Origin: Thermodesulfobacteriota bacterium
GTDB lineage: Bacteria > Desulfobacterota > Binatia > UTPRO1
Assembly (NCBI GenBank): GCA_036781285.1
Contig: DAIQBH010000006.1
Coordinates: 1-62,566 of the forward strand
Reading direction: 5' to 3'
Length of the DNA: 62,566 bases
Shown here: positions 5,792-20,356 of the stretch, one piece after another
Layout of the letters: each line of letters begins with the position of its first letter
Position numbering within the stretch: position 1 is the stretch's first letter
Position numbers and translations under genes: made by a program
Notes under the pieces: generated by a model
Told to the model about the DNA's origin: nothing
The model's database searches: none
The model's input: the letters and a program-made list of their open reading frames with translations, nothing else

Positions 5792-6328
5792 ATGACCAGG
5801 TTCGCATTGATCGTTGCCGTGCTTCTTCTGAGTCAAGCAAGCGCGGTGTCGGCACAGACGGCGTGTCCGACCGACGGGTCGTGCCCCACGGATGTGGGTG
5901 CCTGTCTGGCGGAGTCGTGCCCGTGTGACCGCCCCGGGAACGCTTGGAAGAACCACGGCCAGTACGTGAAGTGCGTCGTCCATCTTCGGAACGACCTTCG
6001 CAATGCCGGCTGTCTGGATGCGGAAGCCAAGCGCACCATCGCGAGCTGCGCGGCGCGTTCGACGTGCGGCAAGGAGGGCGCTGTGTTGTGCTGCACGTAC
6101 GACACGAGCGCGACCTGCAGTGACGCGACGCCGGGTAACACGATCGCAGAGGGTGTCTGCAGCAGCGACGGCACGACCGCGTGCGATACAGCCACCGACT
6201 GCATTACGGTCGTCAAGGGTCCGAAGGTCGTCCGTGGCGGCGAAGAGGCGTGTGTGGCGAGGGGCGGCACGCCCATCGGCACCGGCAGCGTTTGCGGCGG
6301 TTGCCCGGAAGTGCCGCCGGCACCCTGA
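5792..6328 (+). CDS. Secreted Cys-rich hypothetical protein with a WKNHGQYVKCV motif
   Basis: Signal peptide MTRFALIVAVLLLSQASAVSA, AGGAGG RBS, many Cys. Confidence 0.8.
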   Translation: MTRFALIVAVLLLSQASAVSAQTACPTDGSCPTDVGACLAESCPCDRPGNAWKNHGQYVKCVVHLRNDLRNAGCLDAEAKRTIASCAARSTCGKEGAVLCCTYDTSATCSDATPGNTIAEGVCSSDGTTACDTATDCITVVKGPKVVRGGEEACVARGGTPIGTGSVCGGCPEVPPAP

Positions 6329-6405: not shown

Positions 6406-7530
6406 ATGTTCCGCTATCTCACGACACTCGCCGTTCATGCCGCAGTTGCCTTGGCGATCGGAGCCTCTCCGAGCTTTGCGGCCGCCGACCCGAACCTCGT
6501 CTGCCACAAAACCGTCGTGAAGCAGCTCGAGAAGTTCAAGAAGACGCACCTCAAGGTCTACCGGAACTGCATCGACAAGCTGAATCGGAATCTCATTCCG
6601 GGCCCATGCCTCGACGCGAAATCAGCGCTCAAGCTATCGGCCACCCAAATCAAAGTCGCCGGGGCGATCGCCAAGAAGTGCAACCCGACCATCCTCGCGA
6701 CACTCGGCTATCGGTCTGATTGCCAGTACGGCGCCTCGACGGCGGGCGTCGGCGGCACGTGCTTCGCGCTGCCCGCAAGCACGGCAACCGAGTTTGCCAA
6801 CTGCATGATGTGCTGGAAGGGCGCCGAGTTCTCCCGCTACGTCGGGACGCTGTACGCATCGCACGCGACGGAGACTTGTGGCGTCGCGCTCGACGACACC
6901 TCGGCCACCTGCTCTGCGGTCGGCTGCACGAGCCCGCTGCCGACGCAGCGCAACCTCGGGGACACCGGCGAGAACGACTGTCAGCGGATGATGTCCAAGG
7001 CTGCGCTCAACTATCTTCTGAAGCGGGAGAAGATTCTCGACAAGTGCATGTTGCTTGGGAACAGCTACGCAACCTGCCTCGCCGACGTGAAGGTCGACCT
7101 CCAACTTCAGAAGGCCGAGATCCAGAAGCAGACGCTCATCAACAAGTTCTGCAACAACTTCACACCCGTCGCCGATCCGCCTTTTTGTTGCCGCACCGGC
7201 GGCCCGATGCAGCAGTGCGTCGCCGCCGCGACTCGCCAGGAGTGTCTCGACTTGGGTGGGACACACAGCGTCGCGGAAGATCGCGTCTGCGACATGGGCT
7301 CGTGCGCGAACATTCCGGGTCCCGGCAAATCCCTCACCTGGTGGGAGCATTGCCCCAACAACGACCCTTGTCCCGGACCGACGCTCGGCGACATCGACGG
7401 CGTGATCCAGTGTGTGGACGACGTGGCCGACGGCGTGGTGAGCAATCTCCTCTGCTTGCAGTTTCCGAACGGCGCGGCGTGCGCGACACCTGCGCCGATG
7501 GCGACGCCGACCGCGACGCCGACCCCGTAA
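6406..7530 (+). CDS. Secreted Cys-rich protein with two Cx21C helical repeats and a Pro/Thr tail
   Basis: AAGGAG RBS, ATG at 6406, signal peptide ending ASPSFA, ATPAPMATPTATPTP C-terminus. Confidence 0.82.
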   Translation: MFRYLTTLAVHAAVALAIGASPSFAAADPNLVCHKTVVKQLEKFKKTHLKVYRNCIDKLNRNLIPGPCLDAKSALKLSATQIKVAGAIAKKCNPTILATLGYRSDCQYGASTAGVGGTCFALPASTATEFANCMMCWKGAEFSRYVGTLYASHATETCGVALDDTSATCSAVGCTSPLPTQRNLGDTGENDCQRMMSKAALNYLLKREKILDKCMLLGNSYATCLADVKVDLQLQKAEIQKQTLINKFCNNFTPVADPPFCCRTGGPMQQCVAAATRQECLDLGGTHSVAEDRVCDMGSCANIPGPGKSLTWWEHCPNNDPCPGPTLGDIDGVIQCVDDVADGVVSNLLCLQFPNGAACATPAPMATPTATPTP

Positions 7531-7546
7531 TCAGTCGCGAACGGGC

Positions 7547-7581
7547 GGATCAGGCGGGAGCTGCTCACTCCCGCCTGATCC
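7547..7581. terminator. Hairpin between convergent genes (possible bidirectional terminator)
   Basis: Perfect 14-bp stem GGATCAGGCGGGAG / CTCCCGCCTGATCC with a 7-nt loop. No long U-tract. Confidence 0.6.
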
Positions 7582-7616
7582 ACGTCGTCGGGTGAGATGG
7601 CGTCGCTACGGCGCGC

Positions 7617-8969
7617 TCACTGGAACGGAAGCTCCGGGGCTTGGAGGCGCACGAGCTCGTCGAACATGGCTCGACAGGCGGCGGCGTTGGGCGGGCTCGC
7701 GGGGTCGTTGGTGAGAGCTTCGAGCGCATAGGTGCGATCACCCTTCAGGGCCGCCTCGACGATCAGCTCTTGGAGCGGGATCTGCGTCGCGATGTGACTC
7801 GCGATCGGCTCGGCAATCGGCGGCATGGCGTCGGGATGGATGCCGGCGCCGTCGACCTCGGCTCCGACCTCGACGATGGCTCCTGCGGCGACGTTTGGAA
7901 CGTAGCCTCGGTTGGGGACGTTCACCGCCAGGAGCCGCTTGCGGCGACCCGTCCACATCGCGGCGATGATCGGGATCACTTCTTCCAGACTGTGCCCGAT
8001 CTTTTGGGTCGGCAACGGCAGGCGTGTGTTGGCGATGCGCAGCGTCAGTTTCTCGATCGCCTTGTCGATGCGTTCGAACTGCTCGACGTACGGCGGGTGA
8101 AAGCCGATCTCGTGGGCGAACGGCAAGTACTCGCCAATGTGACTGTCGACCGAGCAGGGAATGAGCCCGTAGGTGCGCACCATGTGCGCCACCACTGGCG
8201 CGTAGAGCTGATCCGCGAGCATCGCGAGCACGGGACGGCGGGCGACGGCGCGGGCCAAGCGCGTCAGCGTCGGCCCGAAGTCGAATACCTTGCGAGCGAA
8301 CAGCGCACGCACCCGCGGCATCAAGTCCTCTCCCGTACGCTTGTGGCGGAGCTCGGTGAAGAACGTGAAATGATTGATGCCGGATGCGCGGGCATCGATG
8401 TCGCGCGCGCGGATGCCGAGCAGTCGCCCCAAGCGCACCACGCCGATCGGCATCTCGTGGCACATGCCGACGTTGCGCAGCGTGGTGGCGCGGTTGATCG
8501 CCAGCGTCACGCGACTCATCGGATTCGAGAGGTTGATGAAGAACGCGCCAGGGCAATAGCGGGCGACGCTCGCGCAGATGCCGAGCGTGGTCTTGATGCT
8601 GCGCAGAGAGTGAAAGACGGCGCCGGGGCCTCCGTTCTCGCCGTTCACTTGGGTGGCCCCGTACCGGCGCGGGATCTCGTAGTCTTGGCGCCAGTAGCGA
8701 AACCGGCCGATCTCGGCGCTGCTGATGCAGAAATCGGCCCCTTCGAGTGCACGCGCCGGATCGGTGGTCGCCTCCAGCGTAATGGGGAGGCCACAGCCCG
8801 TGTTGAGCCTGGCGGCGAATCGATGGGCGCGCTCCAGGCGGTCGGGGTTGATGTCGTGCAGGACGAGTCGACTGCCGGCCAGTGCCGGCGTGTGAATGAC
8901 GTCGTTTGCCATCGTCGGGCCGAACGAGAGCCCGCCGGCGCCGATCAAGGTGATGTGTGGTCCCGCCAC
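7617..8969 (-). CDS. Glycoside hydrolase family 4 (NAD+/Mn2+-dependent, alpha-galactosidase-like)
   Basis: ITLIGAGG, LHDIN, ENGGPGA, NLSNPM, GMCHE, GINHF, NVPNRGYVPN. Confidence 0.93.
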   Translation of the reverse strand: MAGPHITLIGAGGLSFGPTMANDVIHTPALAGSRLVLHDINPDRLERAHRFAARLNTGCGLPITLEATTDPARALEGADFCISSAEIGRFRYWRQDYEIPRRYGATQVNGENGGPGAVFHSLRSIKTTLGICASVARYCPGAFFINLSNPMSRVTLAINRATTLRNVGMCHEMPIGVVRLGRLLGIRARDIDARASGINHFTFFTELRHKRTGEDLMPRVRALFARKVFDFGPTLTRLARAVARRPVLAMLADQLYAPVVAHMVRTYGLIPCSVDSHIGEYLPFAHEIGFHPPYVEQFERIDKAIEKLTLRIANTRLPLPTQKIGHSLEEVIPIIAAMWTGRRKRLLAVNVPNRGYVPNVAAGAIVEVGAEVDGAGIHPDAMPPIAEPIASHIATQIPLQELIVEAALKGDRTYALEALTNDPASPPNAAACRAMFDELVRLQAPELPFQ

Positions 8970-9030
8970 GTCCCGGCTCTGCCAGAAGTCGCGACCGGGG
9001 ACTAGCCCGTCCGGTAGTTACGGAAGCAGG

Positions 9031-11367
9031 TCACGGGACGACCAGCAGGGTCTCGGACTGGTTCAAGGCGCCCGGGCCGGGGAACCCGGCCGAAGCATTG
9101 ATCGCCCCCGAGTTCCCCGGCACGCAGTAGGTGGAGGCTACCGTGCGATGGGGGAAGCCCGCGGCGCCCGTTCGCACGATACCGCTGTTCACGAAGCACG
9201 CCCGATGCTTGAAGACGCAGGTCTCCGCGGGCTGGCAGAACGGACATGCGCTCCCTCCGCAGTCGGCGTCTGCGAGGCATGCCCTGTACGTCGTGGTCGA
9301 GCAGTAACCCAGGACGGGGCCGGACGTGCAGATGCCCTCCTGAGTCGAATCCATGTCCGACGGGTCTTCGCGACAATCGCCATCGTGGCAGAAGCCACCG
9401 GTGCAGTCGGCGTCGACGCTGCACAACGCGCCGTCGGACACACCGCCGACGCACGCCGGCGTACAGTCATTGGGACGCACTTGGTCGGCGCAGAAACACT
9501 GATGCGAACACGTCCCACCTGGGCACTCCGAAGCGACCGTGCAATCGCGGCCTCCGCTCGCCCCTCCGACGCACGTCTTCGTGTTGAAGCCCGGTTGCGT
9601 ACACGCCACTCCAGGGGACAGCGAGTACGAGTTGGTACCAATGGGGTCGTTGTTGACGTCGAGGCCCCCACTCGGGCTCGTGATGAGATTCGAGCTCGGC
9701 GGACAGTCCATGCTCGTTACGCCGAAAAAAGGGAGGGGACCGCCGAACGGAGCCGTCCGCCGGCACGTCTTACCGGCACGGGGACCGTCACTACAGATCG
9801 CTTGGGTCACGCACGGACCATCACCCGGATCACAGTCGCCGTCGACGGCGCAGGGCTCCTTGTCGACGGCACAGAACCCGCCGCATACGGGACACGGCTT
9901 TTGCTGCGTGAGCGGCTGCACCACGACGGCACTCTGGCGTACCTTGAGCTCGCCGGCGCCGGTCAGGATGTTGACGGTCCCGACCACGTCCTCACTCAGC
10001 GTGCTGACGTTGCAGACCGCAATTCCGCCGGCGACCTGGGCAACGGGAGAACGCGCCAACCGGGTCTCGCAGAAGTCGCCGGGACCGTCGCAGACCGGAT
10101 CGCTTGGATCGTTCACGGCGCATTTCTTGTTCGGGTCGAGATGGCAATGCGGACCGGTCGCTGTCCGCTCCTTCCGGCACGTGCCCTGCCCGAGACCGGC
10201 ACAGATCGAATCAGAGGTAGTGCCGGAAGCGGCCGCTGCATCCACACCACAGGGCGAATGCGGTGCGAGCGAGCAGCTCGGGCCGGCGATGCAAAGACCG
10301 GTCACGTCGCAATCGTAGAGGTCGACGATGTACCCACTGTCCTGCACGACGTCGCCATCCGAGCTCAGTCCCGTCCAACCGTTGTCGGTATCGGCCTCGG
10401 CATCGCTCAGGACGACCATGCGCGGCTTGGTCTTGCAGAGGCACGCAAAGAATCCGTCCGGGATCTCCGCGGTTCCGCACTGGCCAGGACACGCGGAATC
10501 GTCGGGACCATCACATTCCTCGTTCAGCTGGTTGACGATGTTGTCGCCGCACAGCCCGCCTCGGGCTGCGTATTCGTAGTCGATGAGGTCGGCGGGGAGG
10601 GTGATCTCGGGCGTATCGATGAGGATCTCTTGCGCATCGATCAAGCAGGTCGCCGCCGCGCCAGGGCTCACTTGATCGGGCGTGCACACCTTGAGATCGG
10701 TGATTTGTTGCGCCGAGCACTTCTTTCCGATGCCGGCGGTGAGCTTGGCTTCGCACTTTCCGATCGCGTCCATCGTTTTCTGGTCGGTCGTCGCGCAGAG
10801 ATCCGGGCTCACGGTGCTCTTGCCCTTGATGACGGCGTCGCGGCACTTGCCGACGCTCTTCAACAGGCAAATCGACATGCGGCGGCTCTGCTTTGCGACT
10901 TCGGCCTGGCACTTGTGGTCGTCGCCGAGCGGGGGCACGAGCGTCCCATCGTACTCGAGCGCGAGGACGGTGGTCAGGAACGAGTCGTGACTTGCCTTGA
11001 TGCAGTCGTGGAGATCGGCCGGCGTGAAATCATCCCCTGGGTTCGCGTCACCGCACGGACCGGGGAACCCGATAAGCCGAAGCTCACTCGGGGTGATCGA
11101 GCATGACTTCGTCAACGCATCCGCGAGCTTGCTCTCGAGCTTGTTCACCGCGCCCGGGTCGGGCGTCGCGCAGCTCACGTCCTTGAGATTCGCGTCTCTG
11201 CACTTTTGTTCCAGTTTGAGCCGTGCAGCGAGGTACTTCTGGGCTGCTTTCGGGGCGGCGAGCGCGCACTTCACACGGCGCTCGAGGGCGTGCGCGGACG
11301 AGGCCGCACACGCGACGGCCAGCATTCCGGCAACGAGAATCGACGCTCGGGTTCTGCCGATCGTCAT
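9031..11367 (-). CDS. Large secreted Cys-rich protein (Cx21C repeats, CGDN..EECD repeat, CxGG..C..CPGGxC repeats)
   Basis: 778-aa ORF with a signal peptide. Clear paralog of 17963..20356. Confidence 0.85.
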   Translation of the reverse strand: MTIGRTRASILVAGMLAVACAASSAHALERRVKCALAAPKAAQKYLAARLKLEQKCRDANLKDVSCATPDPGAVNKLESKLADALTKSCSITPSELRLIGFPGPCGDANPGDDFTPADLHDCIKASHDSFLTTVLALEYDGTLVPPLGDDHKCQAEVAKQSRRMSICLLKSVGKCRDAVIKGKSTVSPDLCATTDQKTMDAIGKCEAKLTAGIGKKCSAQQITDLKVCTPDQVSPGAAATCLIDAQEILIDTPEITLPADLIDYEYAARGGLCGDNIVNQLNEECDGPDDSACPGQCGTAEIPDGFFACLCKTKPRMVVLSDAEADTDNGWTGLSSDGDVVQDSGYIVDLYDCDVTGLCIAGPSCSLAPHSPCGVDAAAASGTTSDSICAGLGQGTCRKERTATGPHCHLDPNKKCAVNDPSDPVCDGPGDFCETRLARSPVAQVAGGIAVCNVSTLSEDVVGTVNILTGAGELKVRQSAVVVQPLTQQKPCPVCGGFCAVDKEPCAVDGDCDPGDGPCVTQAICSDGPRAGKTCRRTAPFGGPLPFFGVTSMDCPPSSNLITSPSGGLDVNNDPIGTNSYSLSPGVACTQPGFNTKTCVGGASGGRDCTVASECPGGTCSHQCFCADQVRPNDCTPACVGGVSDGALCSVDADCTGGFCHDGDCREDPSDMDSTQEGICTSGPVLGYCSTTTYRACLADADCGGSACPFCQPAETCVFKHRACFVNSGIVRTGAAGFPHRTVASTYCVPGNSGAINASAGFPGPGALNQSETLLVVP

Positions 11368-11879
11368 GAGGGACCTCGTCTTTCGACCAAGGAGTGGATT
11401 GCAAAGGGCATGAGTCGTCGGCTCCGGCTGCCTCCGCGAGGATGCAGCGTGCGGCGACGCTAGCAGAGGTCGAGGCGACGAGGGAAAGAATGTTGGCGGC
11501 TTAGTCCGGGTCAGGACGCCATCCGGACGAGAAGCGCGCGTCTTGGGCGTGTCGACATAACGTTCGCTATAGTCCGTTCGGACGTGAAGGAAGCGCTCGC
11601 CACGGTGAACGTGCAGCGCAGGTCAACTGCAACGCGTCGCCGTCGTGCTTCCGCGTCGCCATCAGCACCATCGTCTCGATCCCGATCTTGCCGGGCGGCG
11701 ACCCGGCAGACCATCCTCGATGGCATCCGACTCGAATAGCGCCGAGCACCGAACCCGAAGGAGGGCGCGCGCGCCGTCCCTGGAGCGACTGCGATCCATT
11801 CGTCCCGCAGGAGCACGGCAGCACCATGCATGCCGCGATCCCTGGCAGCCGTTGGAGATCTTCGAGGCCACCACCCGCA

Positions 11880-12081
11880 TTGCGACGACCCGGCGCGACG
11901 GCACCAAATCTGATCTGCGGGCGTGGCGTAGGGCAGCCAAGCGTTCCAGGAATTCGTGCGCGGGGTGAAGATCGGGTGGCGTGCCGTCATGCCACCGCGA
12001 GCGGAGCGTACACACGACGCGGCCATCGGCGAGTCGCGACGATCGCTCTTGCGCGAGCGGAGGGCGCAAAAGGTAGTGGCA
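11880..12081 (-). pseudogene. IS91/ISCR-family (Y2 HUH) transposase remnant
   Basis: CHYLLRPPLAQERSSRLADGRVVCTLRSRWHDGT...EFLERLAAL resembles the C-terminal block of IS91-type transposases. No N-terminal HUH part, and the flanks are degraded. Confidence 0.7.
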
Positions 12082-12157
12082 GACGTTCGAGCCCACCACG
12101 GTCGTCGGCCGCGACGTCGCGCGCGGCGTGATCCTGCGGCGATCGAGCCGCCACGAA

Positions 12158-12285
12158 AAATTGAACGCGAAATTGAACGCATGGAGCGGCCGCGCGCCTT
12201 GTACCCCGCGCTCCGCGGCCCCTAGGGTGTCCGCTCACCGAGGGCGATGAAACGCCCACAACCACTGCCGCACCCCACTGCCGCA
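12158..12285 (+). repeat. Two short direct-repeat pairs upstream of the 12301 gene
   Basis: AAATTGAACGC at 12158-12168 and 12170-12180; CCACTGCCGCA at 12262-12272 and 12275-12285. Confidence 0.85.
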
Positions 12286-12300
12286 TAGAAGGAGTTCTTC

Positions 12301-13455
12301 ATGTCGTTGCACCGAGTGTCTTCGCTGTTGGCCGGTCTTCTCGGATCGTTGGTGGTGGCGGGCTCGGCCAGCGCAGCCGGTGCCGACAAAGTCACGATCT
12401 GCCACTTTCCGCCCGGCAATCCCGGAAACTTCCAGACCATCACGATCGCGCCGTCGGCGCTGCCCGCCCATCTCGGCCATCACGACTTCGGCGGGCCGTG
12501 CGAGAACGACTGCACGCTCCTCGGCTCCGTCTGCGACGACGGGAACTCCTGCACCGTCGATACCTGCAATGCCGATGGAACGTGCGCGCACTCGGCGCCG
12601 ACCGACTGTAACGATGGCAATCCCTGCACCGCCGACTCGTGCGATCCCGACACGGGCGCGTGCGTGACGACGCCCGTGTCCACCAGCACGACGTGCGACG
12701 ACGGCAATGCGTGCACCGGCCCTCTCGACAATTGCGACAGCAGCGGGGAGTGTCACGGGGCGCCGATCGCGGGCTGCTGCACCACCAACGCCGCGTGCAA
12801 CGATCAGAATCCGTGCACCAACGATACGTGCAATCTCGGCACGCACACGTGCACGAACAGCACGAAGACGTGCACCCCGTCGGACCTCTGTCACCAGGCC
12901 TCCTGCGCCCCCGACGACGGCACGTGCGTCGAAGCCCCGATCGAGTGCGACGCCGGCGACGTATGCTCGGAGGGAACGTGTGTCCCCCTGGAAACGAGAC
13001 TGGTCGATCTGACCGTCGGAACGACTTACAGCGGCGCAGCGTCGTTCCCAGCCGACTCTCGCCAGCAGATCACCATTCCGCCGGGTGGGGCTTGGATTAC
13101 GAAATTGGAAGTCGGTCATGCTACCGGTGTGGGCGCCTTGACCATCCGAGACAACGCGAGTGGAATCGGTGTCCTGGGAGCACCGATTGCCGGATTGAGT
13201 GAAACCGATCCGGGCGTGCTCGTCACACCCTCCGTGGTGAGTGTCGGTGGAGCCGGCTCATCTCCGGCGTCGTCCAATGTCCGGCGAGTCGAATACCCGA
13301 CGCCGATCTTCTTGGCGGCTGGGACATATCAAGTCTCGATGGCCGTTTCGAGCACTGCCAGCAATGCCCTTTGGGCCTACACCCACGCTGGCGCTGAACC
13401 ATCTGTTCCGCCTGGCTACGTCTTCTGGATCGTGGTGGCTGGGTACGCGCCCTAG
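12301..13455 (+). CDS. Secreted protein: KVTICH domain, CxDGNxCTxDxC repeats and a distinct C-terminal domain
   Basis: Signal peptide; KVTICHFPPGNPGN; repeats CDDGNSCTVDTC, CNDGNPCTADSC, CDDGNACT, CNDQNPCTNDTC; AAGGAG RBS. Confidence 0.85.
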   Translation: MSLHRVSSLLAGLLGSLVVAGSASAAGADKVTICHFPPGNPGNFQTITIAPSALPAHLGHHDFGGPCENDCTLLGSVCDDGNSCTVDTCNADGTCAHSAPTDCNDGNPCTADSCDPDTGACVTTPVSTSTTCDDGNACTGPLDNCDSSGECHGAPIAGCCTTNAACNDQNPCTNDTCNLGTHTCTNSTKTCTPSDLCHQASCAPDDGTCVEAPIECDAGDVCSEGTCVPLETRLVDLTVGTTYSGAASFPADSRQQITIPPGGAWITKLEVGHATGVGALTIRDNASGIGVLGAPIAGLSETDPGVLVTPSVVSVGGAGSSPASSNVRRVEYPTPIFLAAGTYQVSMAVSSTASNALWAYTHAGAEPSVPPGYVFWIVVAGYAP

Positions 13456-14145
13456 ATGGCGACGTTCGTTCTCGTCCATGGTGCGTTCGGGAGCCCGGCC
13501 GAGCTGGCGCCGGTGATTCCCGAGCTGGAGGCGCGCGGGCACCGCGCGGTCGCCGTCGACCTGCCGTGCACGGACCCGACGGCAACGCTCGACGACTACG
13601 CCCGGACGGTGGCCGAGGCGATGGCCGGGATCACCGGGCTGGTCGTGGTCGTCGGCCATTCGGCCGGTGGTGCCACGATCTCGCTCGTGCCCGGCCGGAC
13701 CCGCGTCGACCGCTTGGTCTACGTGACGGCGGTCGTTCCCGAGCCGGGGCGCTCGATCGCCGACGTCGTCGGCGCTGACGTTCGCGACACGATGCTGTCG
13801 GTCTCACGCGACGACGGCAACGGCTGCCGGTCGTTCGACTTCGAGCTGCTGGCCTCGCTGGCGCCGCCGGAGGAGCGGGATGCCTATCTGACCTTCCTCA
13901 CGACCACGCAGCGCGCCCAGGGCTGGGGAGCGATCGAACAGCCCTGGCCCGGCCGATCCCTTCCCGACGTGCCCCGTGCCTATGTCCTCTGCACGGAGGA
14001 CAAGATCATACCGCCGGCGAAACAGCGCGCGATGGCGGCGCGCCTCGGCGTGGAGCCGATCGAGATCGCCTCCGAGCATGCGGTCTTCACGTTCCAGCCT
14101 CACGCGCTCGCGGCGGTGTTGGCGGCGGAGTGCCGATCGACGTGA
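13456..14145 (+). CDS. Alpha/beta hydrolase (methylesterase-like)
   Basis: FVLVHGA, VVGHSAGG nucleophile elbow, EDKIIP, SEH. The ATG directly follows the upstream TAG. Confidence 0.92.
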   Translation: MATFVLVHGAFGSPAELAPVIPELEARGHRAVAVDLPCTDPTATLDDYARTVAEAMAGITGLVVVVGHSAGGATISLVPGRTRVDRLVYVTAVVPEPGRSIADVVGADVRDTMLSVSRDDGNGCRSFDFELLASLAPPEERDAYLTFLTTTQRAQGWGAIEQPWPGRSLPDVPRAYVLCTEDKIIPPAKQRAMAARLGVEPIEIASEHAVFTFQPHALAAVLAAECRST

Positions 14146-14339
14146 GCTCCCGGGAGTCGGAAGCTCGAGCAGTGCCGCCAGATCCGCTCTCGCCGACGAC
14201 AGGAGCGAGCGGGGCGATGCGGGTCCGCTCGACCCCGGAAATCCGGTCCTGCTAGAGACCTGCCGCGTGAGCCGAGGATCGCGGTGAGGCGTGGCGGGGC
14301 GCCAGGCTAGGAGTCCGCGAGCCTTCTCCGTGCCCTCTC

Positions 14340-15875
14340 ATGTTCGTCGACGCGCGCACTGTTCCCGACGGTTCCCGCGTCGAGGCCGACGTCTGCATCA
14401 TCGGCGCCGGGGCCGCGGGGATCACGGTCGCCCGCGCGCTGCGCGCGGGGCCGTGGCGCGTGGCGCTCCTCGAGTCCGGAGGATTCTCGCCGGACGCGGT
14501 GACGCAGTCGCTCTCCGCCGGATCGGCGCCGGATCAGCCGTACTTCCCGCTCGACGAGTCACGAACGCGCTGCTTCGGGGGCACCACGCATCAGTGGACC
14601 GGCGAATGCCGTCCGCTCGAGGCTCTCGACTTCGAGGAACGTGACTGGGTTCCGGGGAGCGGCTGGCCGTTCCGTTTCGTCGACCTTCTGCCGTTCTACC
14701 AGCGCGCGCAGTCGCTGTGTGAGCTCGGTCCCTTCACGTACGACGCCGCCGATTGGCCGGGGATGAGTGCGCGGCTCCTCGCGCTCGACGACGAGCGGGT
14801 GCTCACGCGGACGCTGCACTACAGCCCCCCGACGCGCTTCGGCCGGACGTACCGCGCCGAGATCGGACGCGCGGGGACCGTCGTCGCGTACCTCGGAGCG
14901 AACGTGGTGCAGCTCGAGACGCCTGCGCCGCCCACGCGCGTGACCGGGGTGAGGGTCGCGACCCTTTCGGGCAGCGCCTTCCGAGTCGCGGCGCGCCTCG
15001 TCGTGCTTGCCGCGGGTGGCATCGAGAACGCGCGCCTCCTTCTCATGTCGAACGAGGTGCAGGCTGCCGGCCTCGGCAACGACCACGACGTGGTCGGCCG
15101 CTACTTCATGGAGCATCTGTATCTGGACCGCGCGGCGACGATCGAAGCGCCGCAAGGGCGCATCGACGAGCTCTACACCTTCGGGCACCGGGTCGCGCGG
15201 CGGCGCGTGCGGGGCATCCTGGCGCTCGCCCCGCAGATCCAACGGCGCGAACGGCTGACGAACGTCTGCGCCGTCGTCGACGAGGATCCGCCGCGCTTCG
15301 CTCCTCCGTCATGGGGCTCGCTGCTCGACGCCCTCCGCGACGGTCGGGTGATCGAGCGCGCCCGGACGTTCGTCCGGAACTCGACCGAGCGGCGCGCCCG
15401 CGGCGCTCGCCGAGATCGGTCCACCGATCTCCACCTGGTGAAGCACGTCATGGAACAGGCCCCCAATCCCGAGAGCCGCGTCGTGCTCGGTCCCGACACG
15501 GACCGTCTCGGCTGTCCTCGGGTCATCCTCCGGTGGCGCCTCGGCGCCCTCGACAAGCACACGGCGCATCGCGCGCACGAGATCCTCGCCGAGGAGCTCG
15601 AACGGAACGGGATCGGACGCTTCGCGAGCACGATCGGCCGGGAAAGCGATCCGTGGCCCTCGACCTTGCGCGGGGGACGTCACCACATGGGCACGACCCG
15701 CATGCATCCGGATCCGCGGCACGGGGTCGTGGACGCCGACGGCCGCGTCCACGGGATGGCGAACCTGTACGTCGCCGGAAGCTCGGTGTTTCCGACCTCG
15801 GGAACCGCCAACCCGACGCTGACGATCGTCGCCCTGGCGCTCCGCCTCGCCGACCACCTGCGACGACGACTGTGA
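14340..15875 (+). CDS. GMC-family FAD oxidoreductase
   Basis: IIGAGAAG, LLESG, FGGTTHQW, AAGGIENARLLL, HHMGTTRM, GTANPTLTIVALALRLA. Confidence 0.95.
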   Translation: MFVDARTVPDGSRVEADVCIIGAGAAGITVARALRAGPWRVALLESGGFSPDAVTQSLSAGSAPDQPYFPLDESRTRCFGGTTHQWTGECRPLEALDFEERDWVPGSGWPFRFVDLLPFYQRAQSLCELGPFTYDAADWPGMSARLLALDDERVLTRTLHYSPPTRFGRTYRAEIGRAGTVVAYLGANVVQLETPAPPTRVTGVRVATLSGSAFRVAARLVVLAAGGIENARLLLMSNEVQAAGLGNDHDVVGRYFMEHLYLDRAATIEAPQGRIDELYTFGHRVARRRVRGILALAPQIQRRERLTNVCAVVDEDPPRFAPPSWGSLLDALRDGRVIERARTFVRNSTERRARGARRDRSTDLHLVKHVMEQAPNPESRVVLGPDTDRLGCPRVILRWRLGALDKHTAHRAHEILAEELERNGIGRFASTIGRESDPWPSTLRGGRHHMGTTRMHPDPRHGVVDADGRVHGMANLYVAGSSVFPTSGTANPTLTIVALALRLADHLRRRL

Positions 15876-16033
15876 CGGTGGCGTCGGCGCGTCGCCCTCG
15901 CGCGTCCGGTTGCCAGGACGCGAAGGTTCGCGCGAGCACATTCACACAGCCATGACCCTCATCACCTCGCGATGAGCTGCGGGGAAGATCGTCACGAAGC
16001 TCGCCACCGTCTCGCTGCTCGCCACCGCCGCGC

Positions 16034-17710
16034 TCAGAATGGAGCGGGGCTCGCGAACGTCACACGTTCGCCGGTCGCGGGATGCGCGAACGTGATCGCT
16101 TCGGCGTGCAGCATGAGACGTTCGCCGGCATGGCCGTAGAGACGGTCGCCGGCGATCGGTGCGCCGAGGCCGCGCGGATGCGCGGCGTGCACGCGCAGTT
16201 GATGAGTGCGGCCGGTCCGCGGCAAGAACGCGACGCGGGTGCCGGCGATCGCGCCGTCACCGTCCGACGCTGCCACGGTTCCGACGCGCCGCCATTCGGT
16301 GACGGCACTCCGGCCGTGCACGGGATCGTGGATCTGGCGCGGCCGGTCGTCGACGTCGACTCTCAGCGCGAGGTCGATCACGCCGCCGTCGTCGTCGATC
16401 CGTCCCTCGACGATCGCGGCGTAGCGCTTCTCCACGGTGCGCGCGAGGAATTGCCGCTGGAGCGACGCATGAGCCTCGCCATCGCGTGCGGCGACGAGCA
16501 ATCCGGAGGTGTCGAGGTCGAGGCGATGGACCAGCAGCGCGCCCGGATGCGAGCGGCGGAGGCGCGCGGCCACCGAGTCGTTCGGCCGTCCGTTGCGTGC
16601 GTCCACCGAGAGCAAGCCGCACGGCTTGTCGACGACGACGATGCGATCGTCCTCGAAGATCACGCGCAGCCGTAGCGCCTCCGACTCAGGGGGCTCGAAA
16701 CGGCGGGGCGGGGCGACGTCCAGGCCGTCCATCATGAACGGCAGCAGCGGCCCGCATTTGTCGCGGCACGCCGGGTAGAACGCGCCCGCGACGCGACCGC
16801 CGCCCGCGGGCGGCGCGCCCCACCAGAACTCCGCGAGCGCGAGCGGCCGCAAGTCCAACGCGAAAGCCCACGCGAGGAGCTTCGGCGCGACGCAGTCACC
16901 GGCGCCGGTCGGTGGTTCCGCCGGCGCGAACAGTGTCCGGAGCGCGCGGATCGCGCCGCGCGCGTTCGGAGCTCGATACGTGTCGTGAATCCGCTGCATG
17001 AGGCGGCGACACACGATGCGGCGCAGGCGCTCGAAGGCGGCGAGCCGACGATCGACGCGGCGGAGGCGGACGTCGATCGCACGGCGCTCGGCGGCATGCG
17101 CGGCGTCGAGGGCCCGCCGCTCGGCCTTGTCGCGACGGCTCTGCTGCGCTCGCAGCTCGGTCGCCGCGTCCCGCGCCGGGTCTGCGCAGCCGTCGACCGC
17201 GACCACCGCCGTCCGTCGCCGGCGCTCCGCGCGCCGTTCGCGATGACGCGCGCGCATGGCGTCGGCAGCAATGCGGTGGCGCGCCGTCATCGCGCGCTCG
17301 GCCTCGCGAAGTGCCGCGACCTCCGCGGACGACGCGAACGCGGCGCGGCGCGCGATGAGATCCTTCACGAGCGCTTCGCCCGGCACCTCGATCGCGTCGC
17401 GCGCGGCGCGGTCGAAGATCGGCGGGGCGTACCCGGGGACGTCGAACCGCCCGCCGAGCATTCCGGAGAAGGCGCGCAGGAACCCGCGGCGTCCCTCGCG
17501 ATCTTCGACGACCAGCACGCCGAACATCTTTCCGCCGGCGGGCGCGTCGAGGACGTCGGTGCGCAGGTTGGCCGCGACGAAACCGGTCCGGAGCTCGGCC
17601 ATCACGATCGAGGCGGCACGGCGGGCGAGCGCCGGCGGCCCGAGCTCGTCGAACGGGCTCGGAAAGGGCGCGCCATCATCGGAAGTCGGCTCGTCCAAAG
17701 GTGTCAGCAT
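16034..17710 (-). CDS. rluA: RluA-family pseudouridine synthase, long form with an N-terminal coiled-coil extension
   Basis: VDKPCGLLSV, HRLDLDTSGLL, GRTHQLRVH, MLHAEAI. N-terminal GKMFGVL and GAGDCVAPKLL blocks. Start chosen at MLTPLDE. Confidence 0.85.
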   Translation of the reverse strand: MLTPLDEPTSDDGAPFPSPFDELGPPALARRAASIVMAELRTGFVAANLRTDVLDAPAGGKMFGVLVVEDREGRRGFLRAFSGMLGGRFDVPGYAPPIFDRAARDAIEVPGEALVKDLIARRAAFASSAEVAALREAERAMTARHRIAADAMRARHRERRAERRRRTAVVAVDGCADPARDAATELRAQQSRRDKAERRALDAAHAAERRAIDVRLRRVDRRLAAFERLRRIVCRRLMQRIHDTYRAPNARGAIRALRTLFAPAEPPTGAGDCVAPKLLAWAFALDLRPLALAEFWWGAPPAGGGRVAGAFYPACRDKCGPLLPFMMDGLDVAPPRRFEPPESEALRLRVIFEDDRIVVVDKPCGLLSVDARNGRPNDSVAARLRRSHPGALLVHRLDLDTSGLLVAARDGEAHASLQRQFLARTVEKRYAAIVEGRIDDDGGVIDLALRVDVDDRPRQIHDPVHGRSAVTEWRRVGTVAASDGDGAIAGTRVAFLPRTGRTHQLRVHAAHPRGLGAPIAGDRLYGHAGERLMLHAEAITFAHPATGERVTFASPAPF

Positions 17711-17825
17711 GAGCGTGGAGCTCGGATCCGCCCAGTCGGCAGAAGGCGGCGGGAACCGTCCCCGTACCTGTCCGTGCGCTCCGACGCCACTCGCTGCGTG
17801 TACCCCGCGGCCCATGGCGGACGGG

Positions 17826-17856
17826 CGACTGGGCGTCACGGCGTGACGCCCAGTCG
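17826..17856. repeat. 31-bp near-perfect palindrome in a divergent intergenic region
   Basis: CGACTGGGCGTCACG-G-CGTGACGCCCAGTCG (15-bp arms). Confidence 0.9.
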
Positions 17857-17962
17857 TCACAGGTACAGACGACGAGTGGTTGCCCGTGTTCCGAGCGTCT
17901 CGGAGCGCCACTCCGCCGCCGCGCGTGAAGTCCGTTTGGACATCCGAACAAGGAGGAGAGAC

Positions 17963-20356
17963 ATGCGACGCCGATTAGGAGTGATTGCGGGGCTTGCCAC
18001 TGCCGCGCTGATGTTGGCGGTTTCGGTCGAGGCACCAGCCGCCGCCGACCGGAAGCTCGAGTGCCAGCGGTCGATAGGGACCGCCGCCAAGCGATTCGTC
18101 CGGCAGGGGCTGAAGCTCGAAGAGGATTGCCGCCTCGCCGAGCTCGCGCTCGACGGGACATGCTCGGCGCCAGATCCGGGTCGCGTGGCGAAACTCAGAG
18201 GCAAGCTGAACGCCGCGCTCGCCAAGCGTTGCGCCGCGGTCGATCTCGCTGCGCTGGGCTTCCCGGGGCCGTGCCCGGACGACACGGGAGGCGATTTCGA
18301 CGTCTTCGACCTTCAGGAGTGCATTCGCCTGACGCACGAGGCGGTGATCGCGAGCCTCGCCGACGTGGAGGTCGACCCGGATCTCGTTTCCGGATCCGTC
18401 GACGTCGATACCGTCGCCTGTCAGAAGCGGATCGCGAACAGCGGTGTCCGATTCGTCGATACCGTCCTGAAGAGCGTTCAGCGCTGCCGGCACGCGATTC
18501 TCGCCGGGAAGGTGACCGGCATCGATCCGGCCACGTGCGCGACGGCCGATGCCAAGACGAGGGAGTCGATCGCCGACGCCCGCGCGACCGCGGTGCGGAG
18601 GATCCTCGGACGATGCAACGACGCGCGGGTCCTCGACCTCCAGGTATGCGAGCCGGACCCTCCGGGGAACGCAGCCGCAGCCGCGGAGTGCGTGCTCGAC
18701 GCGAAACGCGCGGCGGTCGACTCGACGAGCCCGCCGGGCCTCATCCAGTACGAGTACCAGCCGTGGCCCACCCCGACGCCGACCGCGAGCTCCGCGCACT
18801 GCGGCGACGGCGTCGTCAATCGCATCGTCGAGGAATGCGACGGTGCGGACGACGCCGCGTGTCCCGGACGATGCGGCGCCGCGAACGGCTTCTTCGAATG
18901 CCTGTGCTCCGACAAGAAGCGGGTCCGCGTCGTCGAGCACAACGGGAGCGACCTCGACATCGGCTGGATGGGGCTCAGCCACGAGAGCGACATCGTCGAG
19001 GGCGGCGGGTACGTCACGGACCTCTGGGACTGCGACGGACCGGCGGGTCCCGATACCGTGTGCATCGTGGGGCCGAGCTGCAGCCTTCCGCCGCACTCCC
19101 CGTGCGGGTCGACCAAGAACGGTGTCGCCGCGAAGGTCGGACCCCCCTACGAGGACGGCGACGCGATCTGCAACGCGCTCGGGCAGGGAACCTGTCGGAA
19201 AACGCGCGGCGGAGCGACCGGTCCGCACTGCGAGATCGACTTCAAGAAGGAATGCGACGACGACACGCAATGCACGACGCCGGGCGATCGCTGCGTCCGG
19301 CCGTTCCACGGACCGCCGCTCCCGCTCACCGCTGGCGGCATCCAGGTCTGCATCCACAATCTGATGGCGGAGGACATCGTCGGCACCGAGGATCTCGCAA
19401 CCGGCGCGGGGGCGCTGCGCATCCGTCAGATCGCGAGGACGTTCGCCGGCGGCACCGCGGCATCGCCGTGCCCGGTCTGCGGCGGCTTCTGCGCATCGTC
19501 GACGGCGACGACCGTCGACCCCGGCGGCCGTCTGCCGTGCGCGGGCGACGCCGATTGCCGCACGCCGCCGTATGTATGCGTGCTCGAGCCCGTGTGCAGC
19601 TTCGGGCAGAACAAGGACAAGCCGTGCCGGCCGAATCCGCCGTTCGGCGGGCCGACGAAGATCTTCGGCAATCCGAGCCTCGATTGCCCGATGTCACCCG
19701 CGGCGACGCACTACGGGAGTCCGGACGTCCTCTTCAACCCGGCGACCACGGGGTCCCTGTCGCTCCCATCGAGCGTCGCGTGCACCAGCCCGGGTTTCTC
19801 CGGCAAGGTGTGCGTACGGGGCGCGAGCGACGGACGGCCGTGCGCCGCGGAGTCCGAGTGTCCGGACGGCGAGTGCCGGCATCAGTGCACGTGTCCGAAT
19901 CAGGTGGCGCCGAACGCGTGCATGGCGGCGTGTGTCGGCGGCGCGAACGACGCTTCCCCATGCGACGCCGACGACGAATGCCCCGGCGGCTTCTGTCACG
20001 CTGGAGATTGCCGGTTGGATCCCACGGATACCTCCTCGACCGAGGAGGGCCGGTGCACGGTCGGTCCGATCGACCGGCGTTGCTCCGTGACGACGTATCG
20101 ATCCTGCGTTTCCGATGCGGAGTGCCAGCCCTCCCCGACATGCCCGGGCTGCCGGGCCGGCGAGCAATGCATGAACTCGGCGCGGCCCTGCTTCCTGAAC
20201 CCGATCGTGCGGACCGGCGTCCCCGGCACGCCGGACCGCATCGGGGTCGCCACGTTCTGTGTGCCGCGCGCCGGCCCGCCCGTCGACGGAGTCGCCGGCT
20301 TGCCCGGTCCCGGCGCGCTCACGCAGCCGGCGACCAGTCTCTACACCGGCTTCTGA
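17963..20356 (+). CDS. Large secreted Cys-rich protein, paralog of 9031..11367
   Basis: AGGAGG RBS before ATG 17963; signal peptide; CGDGVVNRIVEECDG repeat; same domain order as the 9031 gene. Confidence 0.87.
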   Translation: MRRRLGVIAGLATAALMLAVSVEAPAAADRKLECQRSIGTAAKRFVRQGLKLEEDCRLAELALDGTCSAPDPGRVAKLRGKLNAALAKRCAAVDLAALGFPGPCPDDTGGDFDVFDLQECIRLTHEAVIASLADVEVDPDLVSGSVDVDTVACQKRIANSGVRFVDTVLKSVQRCRHAILAGKVTGIDPATCATADAKTRESIADARATAVRRILGRCNDARVLDLQVCEPDPPGNAAAAAECVLDAKRAAVDSTSPPGLIQYEYQPWPTPTPTASSAHCGDGVVNRIVEECDGADDAACPGRCGAANGFFECLCSDKKRVRVVEHNGSDLDIGWMGLSHESDIVEGGGYVTDLWDCDGPAGPDTVCIVGPSCSLPPHSPCGSTKNGVAAKVGPPYEDGDAICNALGQGTCRKTRGGATGPHCEIDFKKECDDDTQCTTPGDRCVRPFHGPPLPLTAGGIQVCIHNLMAEDIVGTEDLATGAGALRIRQIARTFAGGTAASPCPVCGGFCASSTATTVDPGGRLPCAGDADCRTPPYVCVLEPVCSFGQNKDKPCRPNPPFGGPTKIFGNPSLDCPMSPAATHYGSPDVLFNPATTGSLSLPSSVACTSPGFSGKVCVRGASDGRPCAAESECPDGECRHQCTCPNQVAPNACMAACVGGANDASPCDADDECPGGFCHAGDCRLDPTDTSSTEEGRCTVGPIDRRCSVTTYRSCVSDAECQPSPTCPGCRAGEQCMNSARPCFLNPIVRTGVPGTPDRIGVATFCVPRAGPPVDGVAGLPGPGALTQPATSLYTGF

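What the first reader, a model, noticed from the sequence alone, without database searches (positions are those of the whole stretch)
6406..20356. A Cx21C helical repeat shared by three secreted proteins: possible undescribed domain family
Seen: six copies, two per protein, all with exactly 21 residues between the Cys and an invariant Lys at +17. They are CHKTVVKQLEKFKKTHLKVYRNC and CQRMMSKAALNYLLKREKILDKC (6406), CALAAPKAAQKYLAARLKLEQKC and CQAEVAKQSRRMSICLLKSVGKC (9031), and CQRSIGTAAKRFVRQGLKLEEDC and CQKRIANSGVRFVDTVLKSVQRC (17963). Each pair follows the signal peptide. I do not recognise a named family. Inference: a basic, disulfide-stapled helical module serving as a shared envelope anchor, sorting tag or assembly domain for variable Cys-rich payloads.
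Basis: partly seen in the sequence, partly recalled or inferred. Interest (0 to 1): 0.62.

Follow-up and report, generated by a model that had tools for sequence, protein, structure and literature searches.

The report
Uncatalogued twin helical domain of Binatia
The Cx21C motif marks a real, uncatalogued protein domain, a disulfide-locked three-helix bundle always found in tandem pairs, which uncultured Binatia bacteria attach to dozens of different secreted proteins per genome; its function has not been tested.

Summary
All six Cx21C/K+17 motifs are present as written.

They are not a free-standing 23-residue repeat. Each is helix 1 of a 105-150-residue domain with six core cysteines. AlphaFold2 models it as a three-helix bundle (pLDDT 91). 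The tandem pair is modelled as one compact unit (pTM 0.86).

P0002 and P0003 are full-length paralogues. P0001 is only a signal peptide plus the pair.

This genome holds about 160 copies in 90 ORFs. Close relatives (same genus and family) hold 42-132 copies each. Public metagenomes hold 2,414 protein clusters (50% identity).

In 148 sampled genomes of the phylum outside the class Binatia, none matched.

The C1-C2 spacing is exactly 21 in 660 of 660 copies.

Pfam-A, NCBIfam, PDB sequences and Foldseek against the PDB gave no significant match.

The pair sits at either end of very different extracellular payloads: proteases, beta-propellers, lectin-like modules and an RHS shell. It also occurs alone.

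I read it as a portable, non-catalytic module for docking or retention. That function is inferred, not shown.

Several details of the interpretation are not.

The parts
6406..7530 (+). P0001 gene (374 aa): signal peptide plus a tandem domain pair, with no separate payload
   Evidence: Translation. HMM domains at residues 33-172 and 190-373. More than 120 full-length orthologues at 44-90% identity, none with a Pfam domain; those that carry a source name are called 'hypothetical protein'.
6502..6921 (+). P0001 domain 1 (10 Cys); Cx21C helix at 6502-6570
   Evidence: hmmsearch domain E 3.3e-17; motif CHKTVVKQLEKFKKTHLKVYRNC.
6973..7524 (+). P0001 domain 2 (15 Cys, with long insertions); Cx21C helix at 6979-7047
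   Evidence: hmmsearch domain E 6.1e-10; motif CQRMMSKAALNYLLKREKILDKC.
9031..11367 (-). P0002 gene (778 aa): signal peptide, tandem pair, then a Cys-rich body of about 510 aa
   Evidence: Translation; 44% identical to P0003 over the full length.
10942..11271 (-). P0002 domain 1 (minimal six-Cys form); Cx21C helix at 11200-11268
   Evidence: hmmsearch domain E 3.4e-17.
10636..10914 (-). P0002 domain 2; Cx21C helix at 10843-10911 (with one extra internal Cys)
   Evidence: hmmsearch domain E 5.1e-11.
9034..10554 (-). P0002 C-terminal Cys-rich body (the payload)
   Evidence: It belongs to a cluster of 17 paralogous payloads in this genome. No Pfam or NCBIfam hit.
17963..20356 (+). P0003 gene (797 aa): signal peptide, tandem pair, then a Cys-rich body of about 520 aa
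   Evidence: Translation; paralogue of P0002.
18059..18376 (+). P0003 domain 1 (six Cys); Cx21C helix at 18062-18130
   Evidence: hmmsearch domain E 3e-15. AF2 pLDDT 91.1, pTM 0.82, with helices at 2-31, 42-60, 65-68 and 84-107.
18416..18727 (+). P0003 domain 2 (six Cys); Cx21C helix at 18419-18487
   Evidence: hmmsearch domain E 3.9e-16. AF2 of residues 28-262: pLDDT 88.4, pTM 0.86.
18791..20353 (+). P0003 C-terminal Cys-rich body (the payload)
   Evidence: Same 17-member payload cluster. No PDB sequence relative.

Best explanation
**What it is (shown; about 0.9 sure)**

Each Cx21C is helix 1 of an extracytoplasmic domain that no library catalogues. The domain is a three-helix bundle of about 105-150 residues with six core cysteines.

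The Cys of Cx21C sit at the two ends of a 30-residue helix. They act as a fixed ruler, not as a bonded pair.

Co-loss statistics and helix geometry suggest three disulfides:
- C1-C4 and C2-C3 clamp helices 1 and 2 at both ends.
- C5-C6 ties the long loop to helix 3.

The common forms carry one or two extra disulfides.

Helices 1 and 2 display lysine ladders and helix 3 an Asp/Glu ladder, so the bundle is charge-polarised but nearly neutral overall.

The domain occurs almost always as an ordered pair, type 1 followed by type 2. AlphaFold2 models the pair as one compact six-helix unit, and evolution moves the pair around as a unit.

The family is restricted, as far as sampled, to the class Binatia. 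The window genome belongs to the genus of the MAG UTPRO1. Copy number there reaches 40-130 or more per genome.

**How it works (inferred; about 0.4 sure)**

The pair is a rigid, oxidatively folded, non-catalytic end module. After Sec export it holds diverse secreted proteins in place outside the cytoplasm. It could do this in either of two ways:
- by docking to each other or to an unidentified partner;
- by sticking to an envelope polymer through its polarised charged faces.

The exported proteins include proteases, beta-propellers, lectin-like domains, an RHS shell and Cys-rich bodies.

In use, though not in ancestry, it resembles dockerins, SLH domains and carbohydrate-binding modules (CBMs).
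For: **Domain definition**
- An iterated HMM converges at 160 copies in 90 ORFs. Of these, 70 ORFs have exactly two copies.
- In alignment A1 five Cys are invariant, and C37 and K21 are nearly so.
- Over 663 copies the six Cys columns are 98-100% conserved.
- C1-C2 spacing is 21 in 660 of 660 copies, while all other spacings vary.

**Fold**
- AF2 single domain: pLDDT 91.1, pTM 0.82, three long helices.
- AF2 tandem pair: pLDDT 88.4, pTM 0.86.

**Disulfide pattern and charge**
- Co-loss correlations: 25-42 at 0.50, 94-108 at 0.52, and the optional pair 74-111 at 0.48.
- Lys ladders on helices 1 and 2 and an acidic ladder on helix 3.

**Pair inherited as a unit**
- Domain 1 best matches another protein's domain 1 in 66 of 70 cases. 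Domain 2 best matches a domain 2 in 65 of 70.

**Portability**
- The pair lies after the signal peptide, or ends about 11 residues before the stop.
- Apart from one cluster of 17, payloads are mostly unrelated to each other.
- Pfam on payloads finds Peptidase_S8, C11, Reprolysin, GSDH, Lactonase and PQQ propellers, Big_2, CBM96, Beta_helix, the RHS/teneurin shell, DUF1800 and DUF4215.
- 18 of 40 N-terminal pairs are followed by a Pro/Thr linker.
- Pair-only proteins are conserved. P0001 has more than 120 orthologues.

**Export and oxidation**
- 34 of 40 proteins with an N-terminal pair have a signal-peptide-like start 25-52 residues upstream of domain 1.
- The genome has DSBA-family genes, and 19 of 20 relatives have VKOR.

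**Range**
- 2,414 public clusters match at E<=1e-3.
- There are 42-132 copies in each of 18 genomes of the same genus or family.
- 0 of 148 phylum genomes outside the class match.

**No catalogue or fold match**
-.
Against: No experiment and no interaction data exist, and no partner was found.

- A search for recurrent neighbours of the 90 genes found only another expanded secreted family, not a specific receptor or sorting enzyme.
- The charge ladders could be purely intramolecular salt bridges that stabilise the bundle.
- I could not inspect model coordinates. The disulfide map therefore rests on a few Cys-loss events plus helix geometry.
- Conserved stand-alone pairs such as P0001 fit an autonomous binding function at least as well as a tether.
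- Absence outside Binatia was tested only within one phylum, and with one peptide pattern across species genomes.
Confidence: 0.45

Rival explanations
1. Cargo tag of a Binatia-specific secretion or surface-sorting pathway. A dedicated machine recognises the folded pair and moves or attaches the protein, much as T9SS C-terminal domains work.
For: The pair sits on a large share of the predicted secretome (90 ORFs). It is lineage-restricted and terminal. Payloads are otherwise unrelated.
Against: The pair occurs at either terminus, whereas known sorting domains keep to one end. It is large, about 260-300 residues. Stand-alone pair proteins are conserved as orthologues. No recurrent neighbouring machinery gene was seen.
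Confidence: 0.17
2. One reading: a ligand-binding anchor. The lysine faces of helices 1 and 2 bind an anionic envelope or matrix polymer (LPS, acidic exopolysaccharide, eDNA) or a membrane surface.
For: Conserved Lys ladders give helix 1 a net charge of about +4. Pro/Thr linkers resemble those beside carbohydrate-binding modules. Stand-alone copies are compatible with a binding protein.
Against: The whole domain is near neutral because helix 3 is acidic. P0003 domain 1 and P0001 domain 2 have a net charge of -5. No conserved exposed aromatic platform is evident, and helical bundles are unusual glycan binders (my own knowledge).
Confidence: 0.2
3. Inert structural element. The pair is a protease-resistant, disulfide-locked spacer or stabiliser with no specific partner. 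It spread by domain shuffling in a lineage with a very Cys-rich secretome.
For: The strongest conservation is in the Cys and core hydrophobic columns. The charge ladders could be intramolecular. Many other Cys-rich modules are expanded in the same genomes.
Against: The type 1 then type 2 order is strictly kept. Surface Lys positions are conserved in 70-72% of copies. Pair-only orthologues are conserved. All three argue for a function of the pair itself.
Confidence: 0.13
4. Redox- or metal-active cysteine module, for example a thiol-disulfide exchange or Cu/Zn binding domain.
For: 64% of copies carry a CxxC at the start of helix 3 (columns 108 and 111). Binatia are predicted methylotrophs and alkane oxidisers (PMC8262859). 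That lifestyle might need copper, which is my own inference.
Against: The CxxC is absent from four of the six window copies. Its two Cys co-vary with different partners, 94 and 74. Cys counts are mostly even. There are no His/Met ligand motifs, and the Cys lie at helix ends rather than lining a core.
Confidence: 0.05

Closest known systems
Twin CXnC helix-loop-helix proteins (CHCH / twin CX9C, mitochondrial intermembrane space)
   Same: Two antiparallel helices are clamped by two disulfides. One Cys sits near each end of each helix, and the spacing on a helix is fixed.
   Different: Here the spacing is 21 on helix 1 and 23-33 between C3 and C4. There is a third helix with its own disulfide. 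The unit is a tandem pair, it is bacterial and Sec-exported, and there is no sequence or Pfam match.
PhoU-like six-helix bundles (two tandem three-helix repeats; PDB 4q25, 2olt, 2iiu)
   Same: The overall plan is the same: two tandem three-helix repeats pack into one unit.
   Different: Foldseek gives only E 0.9-3.4 and TM 0.26-0.32. PhoU is cytoplasmic, binds metal and has no disulfides. There is no sequence similarity.
Dockerin, SLH and CBM-type accessory modules of secreted enzymes
   Same: The usage pattern matches: a small non-catalytic module at either end of many unrelated extracellular proteins, often on Pro/Thr linkers, and sometimes standing alone.
   Different: The fold is unrelated. 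This is an all-helical, disulfide-locked domain, with no EF-hand Ca2+ loops or beta-sandwich. No partner comparable to cohesin is known, and no Pfam hit to any of these families was found.
Saposin-like proteins
   Same: They are small, secreted, helical domains with six Cys and three disulfides.
   Different: No SapB Pfam match and no saposin among the Foldseek matches listed. The helix count and the inferred Cys connectivity differ.
Pfam DUF7619 (PF24595)
   Same: It is found in the same proteins, and its profile is also about 133 positions long.
   Different: Its matches lie in the payload just upstream of some C-terminal pairs (L001 residues 1149-1199, P0074 residues 45-94). They are not in the Cx21C domain, and the pairs themselves score nothing.

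Membership tests
Binatia tandem Cx21C three-helix domain (unnamed; defined here by the HMM and alignments A1/A3) | Cx21C with invariant spacing on helix 1 | tested here: met
   All six window copies have it. So do 660 of 660 family copies that keep both Cys.
Binatia tandem Cx21C three-helix domain (unnamed; defined here by the HMM and alignments A1/A3) | Six core cysteines (HMM columns 3, 25, 42, 69, 94, 108) and a significant HMM match | tested here: met
   Domain E-values for the six window copies run from 6e-10 to 3e-17. The Cys columns are 98-100% conserved.
Binatia tandem Cx21C three-helix domain (unnamed; defined here by the HMM and alignments A1/A3) | Ordered tandem pair (type 1 then type 2) in an exported protein | tested here: met
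   All three window proteins have two copies after a signal-peptide-like start. Position-specific best hits hold in 66 of 70 and 65 of 70 cases.
Any Pfam-A or NCBIfam family | A profile match at or near the curated cut-off | tested here: not met
   No match to the domain at E<=1 for the window proteins or for the N-terminal and C-terminal subtype pairs. Only sub-threshold noise appeared, such as CCPGW_fam at 16.8 bits against a cut-off of 80.
CHCH / twin CX9C | Two CX9C (or CX3C) motifs in a helix-loop-helix | tested here: not met
   The spacing is 21 on helix 1 and 23-33 for C3-C4. No Pfam CHCH hit.
PhoU-like fold | A significant structural superposition on a PhoU six-helix bundle | tested here: not met
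   Foldseek E 0.94-3.4 and TMq 0.26-0.29 for 4q25, 2olt and 2iiu.
Dockerin (type I-III) | A duplicated Ca2+-binding F-hand segment, with a Pfam Dockerin_1 match | tested here: not met
   No Dockerin hit in any scan. The model is made of three long helices per domain.
Dockerin-like function (binds a cohesin-like partner) | A specific protein partner | not testable with these tools
   No multimer prediction or interaction data were available. The neighbour search found no candidate.
Myxococcus cysteine-rich repeat (DUF4215 / TIGR02232) | Repeated CGDGxxxxxEECDDGN units | tested here: not met
   P0002 and P0003 have one CGD[GN]..EECDG-like string at the start of the payload but no Pfam or NCBIfam hit at E<=1. 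DUF4215 does hit other family members' payloads.

The most novel reading that the evidence does not exclude
Binatia may have an undescribed, lineage-wide system for extracellular assembly or surface display.

In it, the charge-polarised six-helix pair would be a universal handle. Handles would associate with each other, basic face to acidic face, or with a still unidentified receptor.

That would organise up to about a hundred different secreted enzymes, lectin-like proteins and toxin shells per cell into an envelope-bound coat.

It would be a helical, disulfide-locked functional analogue of the cohesin-dockerin or S-layer-anchoring systems.
Probability: 0.2. Interest if true: 0.8.

Novelty: new variant of a known kind. 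Interest (0 to 1): 0.5.

Why it matters
Binatia (Binatota) are globally common soil and sediment bacteria that have never been cultured. They are known only from genomes, which have been read mainly for methylotrophy, alkane degradation and pigment production (PMC8262859).

In the genomes closest to this one, an uncatalogued domain appears 40-130 times per genome. There it marks roughly 1-2% of the genes, my estimate from 90 ORFs in 6.2 Mb, and much of the predicted secretome.

Defining the domain would have three practical effects:
- It would let annotation pipelines label thousands of "hypothetical proteins".
- It gives a clean sequence signature: Cx21C plus four further Cys.
- It offers a compact, confidently modelled target (235 residues) for structure and binding studies.

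If the pair proves to be a docking or anchoring handle, it would reveal how this lineage organises its extracellular enzymes. It would also add a new all-helical scaffold to the small set of known display modules.

Tried and rejected
1. The search for related loci with the broad alignment A1 failed because no stretch was conserved enough. I repeated it with the narrower A2.
2. The phylum search at E<=1e-30 was too strict to show absence. I repeated it at 1e-4, centred on G031.
3. **DUF7619 lead.** A precomputed PF24595 tag on some hits suggested the domain might already be in Pfam. I rejected this. The match lies in the upstream payload, and the pairs themselves score nothing.
4. The vinculin-tail matches to the profile (E 0.2) and all Foldseek hits (best E 2.4 for the single domain and 0.18 for the pair; TM <=0.4) are generic helical noise.
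5. Literature searches on Binatia/Binatota with cysteine-rich, secreted, disulfide, signal peptide and CX21C found nothing relevant. CX21C hits are mostly plant Dof zinc fingers.
7. The neighbour-enrichment search for a partner or sorting enzyme found none.
8. The apparent lack of VKOR and DsbB in the genome briefly suggested an odd oxidation pathway. VKOR is present in 19 of 20 relatives, so its absence here is an assembly gap.
9. The idea that C1 and C2 form the staple was rejected on helix geometry.


Full report
**Observation**

The window is contig C6 of a 6.17-Mb draft genome with about 70% G+C. Three genes encode the quoted strings exactly:
- P0001: 6406-7530 (+), 374 aa.
- P0002: 9031-11367 (-), 778 aa.
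- P0003: 17963-20356 (+), 797 aa.

Each protein has two Cx21C motifs with Lys at +17. The first motif starts 6-10 residues after a signal-peptide-like N-terminus.

P0002 and P0003 are full-length paralogues, 44% identical over about 800 residues. Their four motifs therefore represent two positions, not four independent events. The first ~107 residues of P0001 align to the N-terminus of P0003 at 30% identity, E 2e-8. This already shows that the conserved unit extends well beyond the 23 residues.

**The real unit**

A regex for C-x16-K-x4-C over all six-frame ORFs of the genome gave 116 hits. About 85 clearly share one consensus, KCQrAIgKAgaKFvqAk.KALqKC. They usually come two per protein, about 140 residues apart.

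Aligning 150 residues from each hit shows a domain with further conserved Cys and motifs: CGG, lGF/GW and DV..C.

An HMM iterated on the genome converges after two rounds. It finds 160 copies in 90 ORFs. Seventy ORFs have exactly two copies, and several of the single-copy ORFs are cut by contig ends or N runs.

The window proteins match at these positions:
- P0001: residues 33-172 and 190-373.
- P0002: residues 33-142 and 152-244.
- P0003: residues 33-138 and 152-255.

P0001 is therefore nothing but a signal peptide and the pair. P0002 and P0003 carry the minimal six-Cys version. The commonest versions have ten Cys.

**Conservation**

I aligned 663 near-full-length copies, taken from the genome plus 287 public proteins.
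- The six core Cys columns are 98-100% conserved.
- The C1-C2 spacing is exactly 21 in 660 of 660 copies that keep both Cys. Every other Cys-Cys spacing varies.

K+17 is Lys in 72% of copies and Lys or Arg in 79%. That matches two other ladder lysines, so it is conserved but not invariant.

**Fold**

AlphaFold2 on P0003 domain 1, using a 39-sequence alignment, gives pLDDT 91.1 and pTM 0.82. It shows three long helices (2-31, 42-60, 84-107) and a short one (65-68).

The Cx21C cysteines lie at residues 4 and 26 of one continuous helix, about 33 Å apart by helical rise. They cannot bond to each other.

Co-loss of cysteines links three pairs of columns:
- 25 with 42, r = 0.50.
- 94 with 108, r = 0.52.
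- the optional pair 74 with 111, r = 0.48.

That leaves 3 with 69. Together with the geometry, this suggests C1-C4 and C2-C3 clamping the helix 1-2 hairpin at both ends, and C5-C6 fixing the loop to helix 3. The map is inferred, because Cys losses are rare and I could not inspect coordinates.

The tandem pair (P0003 residues 28-262, with 43 pairs in the alignment) gives pLDDT 88.4 and pTM 0.86. I take this to mean that the two bundles are modelled in a fixed mutual arrangement, as one unit.

**Charge**

Helix 1 carries Lys/Arg at columns 5, 9, 13, 18, 20 and 24. Helix 2 carries them at columns 49, 53, 56, 60 and 67. Helix 3 has almost no basic residues and carries Asp/Glu at columns 104, 107, 110, 114 and 118.

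The net charge of helix 1 is about +4, but whole domains average only +1 to +3.6, with pI 7.2-7.9. Two of the six window copies have a net charge of -5. "Basic module" is thus true only of helices 1 and 2.

**Architecture and context**

The pair occupies one of two places:
- directly after the signal peptide, followed by a payload;
- at the extreme C-terminus, ending about 11 residues before the stop, after a payload of 300-1,250 residues.

In one 3,680-residue ORF it lies internally, upstream of an RHS/teneurin-type shell.

Payloads fall into one cluster of 17, the Cys-rich body of about 520 aa that P0002 and P0003 carry, plus mostly singletons.

Pfam finds the following on payloads:
- Proteases: Peptidase_S8 (twice), Peptidase_C11, Reprolysin_5.
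- Propeller enzymes: GSDH, Lactonase and PQQ_2 propellers.
- Adhesin- or lectin-like modules: Big_2, Beta_helix, CBM96, GBD_T9SS_assoc, TSP_3.
- Toxin-type shell: RHS and teneurin YD-shell.
- Others: a VCPO/PAP2-like region, DUF1800, DUF1554, DUF4215, DUF7619.

Further points:
- 34 of 40 proteins with an N-terminal pair have a signal-peptide-like start 25-52 residues before domain 1.
- 18 of 40 have a Pro/Thr-rich linker right after the pair. Both counts come from a crude heuristic.
- Domain 1 finds another protein's domain 1 as its best match in 66 of 70 cases, and domain 2 finds a domain 2 in 65 of 70. The pair is therefore shuffled as a unit.
- 37 of 90 genes lie within 10 kb of another member.

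P0001 has more than 120 full-length orthologues at 44-90% identity. None carries a Pfam domain, those with a source name are called "hypothetical protein", and one is labelled Candidatus Binatia. The pair alone is thus under selection.

**Distribution**

The single-domain profile was run against 1.84 billion representative proteins. It finds 2,414 at E<=1e-3, 1,218 at E<=1e-10 and 462 at E<=1e-30. Nearly all of the 150 listed have two stretches, at either end, and many are pair-only proteins of 290-350 aa.

Among relatives:
- Each of 18 genomes of the same genus or family has 42-132 copies.
- One genome of the same order has 22.
- Eleven genomes of other families of the class have 0-29, and six of them have none.

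In a phylum-wide sample, 0 of 148 genomes outside the class match at E<=1e-4.

A peptide-pattern scan of 185,579 species genomes returned 44 loci. All are MAGs titled Candidatus Binatia, "Deltaproteobacteria bacterium"/"delta proteobacterium", or "Polyangiaceae bacterium" such as UTPRO1. Five that I cross-checked by identical coordinates are the same genomes as same-genus relatives of the window, and two more match same-family relatives.

The window genome therefore belongs to the genus of the MAG UTPRO1. UTPRO1 is also the name of one of the seven orders of Binatota (PMC8262859). That paper never mentions secreted or cysteine-rich proteins.

**Comparison with what is known**

- Pfam-A and NCBIfam give no hit to the domain at E<=1. 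This holds for the window proteins, three canonical N-terminal pairs, eight C-terminal-type pairs and two more N-terminal pairs.
- A DUF7619 tag on some relatives lies in the payload, not in the domain.
- PDB sequences give nothing better than vinculin tail at E 0.2.
- Foldseek against the PDB has a best E of 2.4 for the single domain and 0.18 for the pair, with TM <=0.4. PhoU-like six-helix bundles appear at TM 0.26-0.32, which is not significant.

By design the domain resembles a stretched twin-CXnC hairpin with a third helix. By usage it resembles dockerin, SLH or CBM accessory modules. It is a member of none of these.

**Oxidative folding**

The genome has 16 DSBA-family matches. VKOR is missing from this 95.6%-complete assembly but present once in 19 of 20 relatives. 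DsbB is absent from all 21 genomes. The lineage thus has a VKOR-type pathway that could make these disulfides.

**Mechanism**

*Shown:*
- a conserved, exported, six-Cys helical domain in ordered pairs;
- portability across payloads and termini;
- lineage restriction and expansion.

*Inferred:*
- the disulfide map;
- that the charged faces are functional surfaces;
- that the pair tethers or docks proteins outside the cytoplasm.

I put about 0.9 on the structural description. I put about 0.4 on docking or retention as the function, in the broad sense that also takes in envelope binding. The narrower rivals are:
- an anionic-polymer anchor, 0.2;
- a secretion or sorting tag, 0.17;
- an inert stabiliser, 0.13;
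- a redox or metal role, 0.05.

No partner emerged from a neighbour-enrichment search, and no expression data could be obtained.

**Earlier notes of this scan**

Earlier notes describe the same pair in other Binatia genomes. They call it a "portable helical domain", an "eight-cysteine tail domain" and an "N-module pair", and reach similar readings. They are AI notes and not independent evidence. They do mean the domain is a recurrent finding within this scan, though it remains absent from the public catalogues I could search.

**Verdict**

This is a real, publicly undescribed domain family of moderate interest. Its function is open and directly testable.

Noticed in passing
window 5792-6328 (+): A 178-aa signal-peptide protein with about 20 Cys lies 77 nt upstream of P0001 on the same strand. 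A 40%-identical homologue sits in the same position upstream of the P0001 orthologue in L130, but not in L129. This may be a conserved two-gene unit.
   Followed up: partly
window 12301-13455 (+): A 384-aa secreted Cys-rich protein matches the Dictyostelium CTDC repeat (Pfam PF00526, E 3.8e-11, four stretches). It is not a member of the Cx21C family.
   Followed up: partly
window 9034-10554 (-) and 18791-20353 (+): The Cys-rich C-terminal body of about 520 aa in P0002 and P0003 has 17 paralogues in this genome. It has no Pfam, NCBIfam or PDB-sequence match, so it is a second uncatalogued module.
   Followed up: partly
G000 whole genome; relatives G001-G026: VKOR (PF07884) is absent from this assembly but present once in 19 of 20 relatives, in an open frame of about 427 aa in most of them. 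DsbB (PF02600) is absent from all 21 genomes. The VKOR gap is probably due to assembly.
   Followed up: yes
G000:C213:1406-1867 (-) and G000:C101:17370-17801 (-): Two of the 16 DSBA-family matches lie directly beside Cx21C-family genes. One is 92 bp upstream on the same strand on C213, and one is divergent on C101. About 0.6 such cases would be expected by chance (rough hand estimate, not run as a test), so this is not significant but may deserve a look in relatives.
   Followed up: no
G000:C136 (ORF of 3,680 aa; pair at ORF residues 1258-1604): A giant protein carries the pair internally, upstream of teneurin-like TTR, NHL and YD-shell/RHS repeats. This is a polymorphic-toxin-type architecture that uses the same handle.
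   Followed up: partly
G000 contigs C23, C100, C101, C203, C230 and others: Another expanded family of secreted proteins (open frames of about 280 to 1,940 aa, N-terminus MHRPLTIMIAMAATMMVAADVHAAC...) recurs within 4 kb of Cx21C-family genes on 13 contigs. This suggests secretome islands rather than a specific partner.
   Followed up: no
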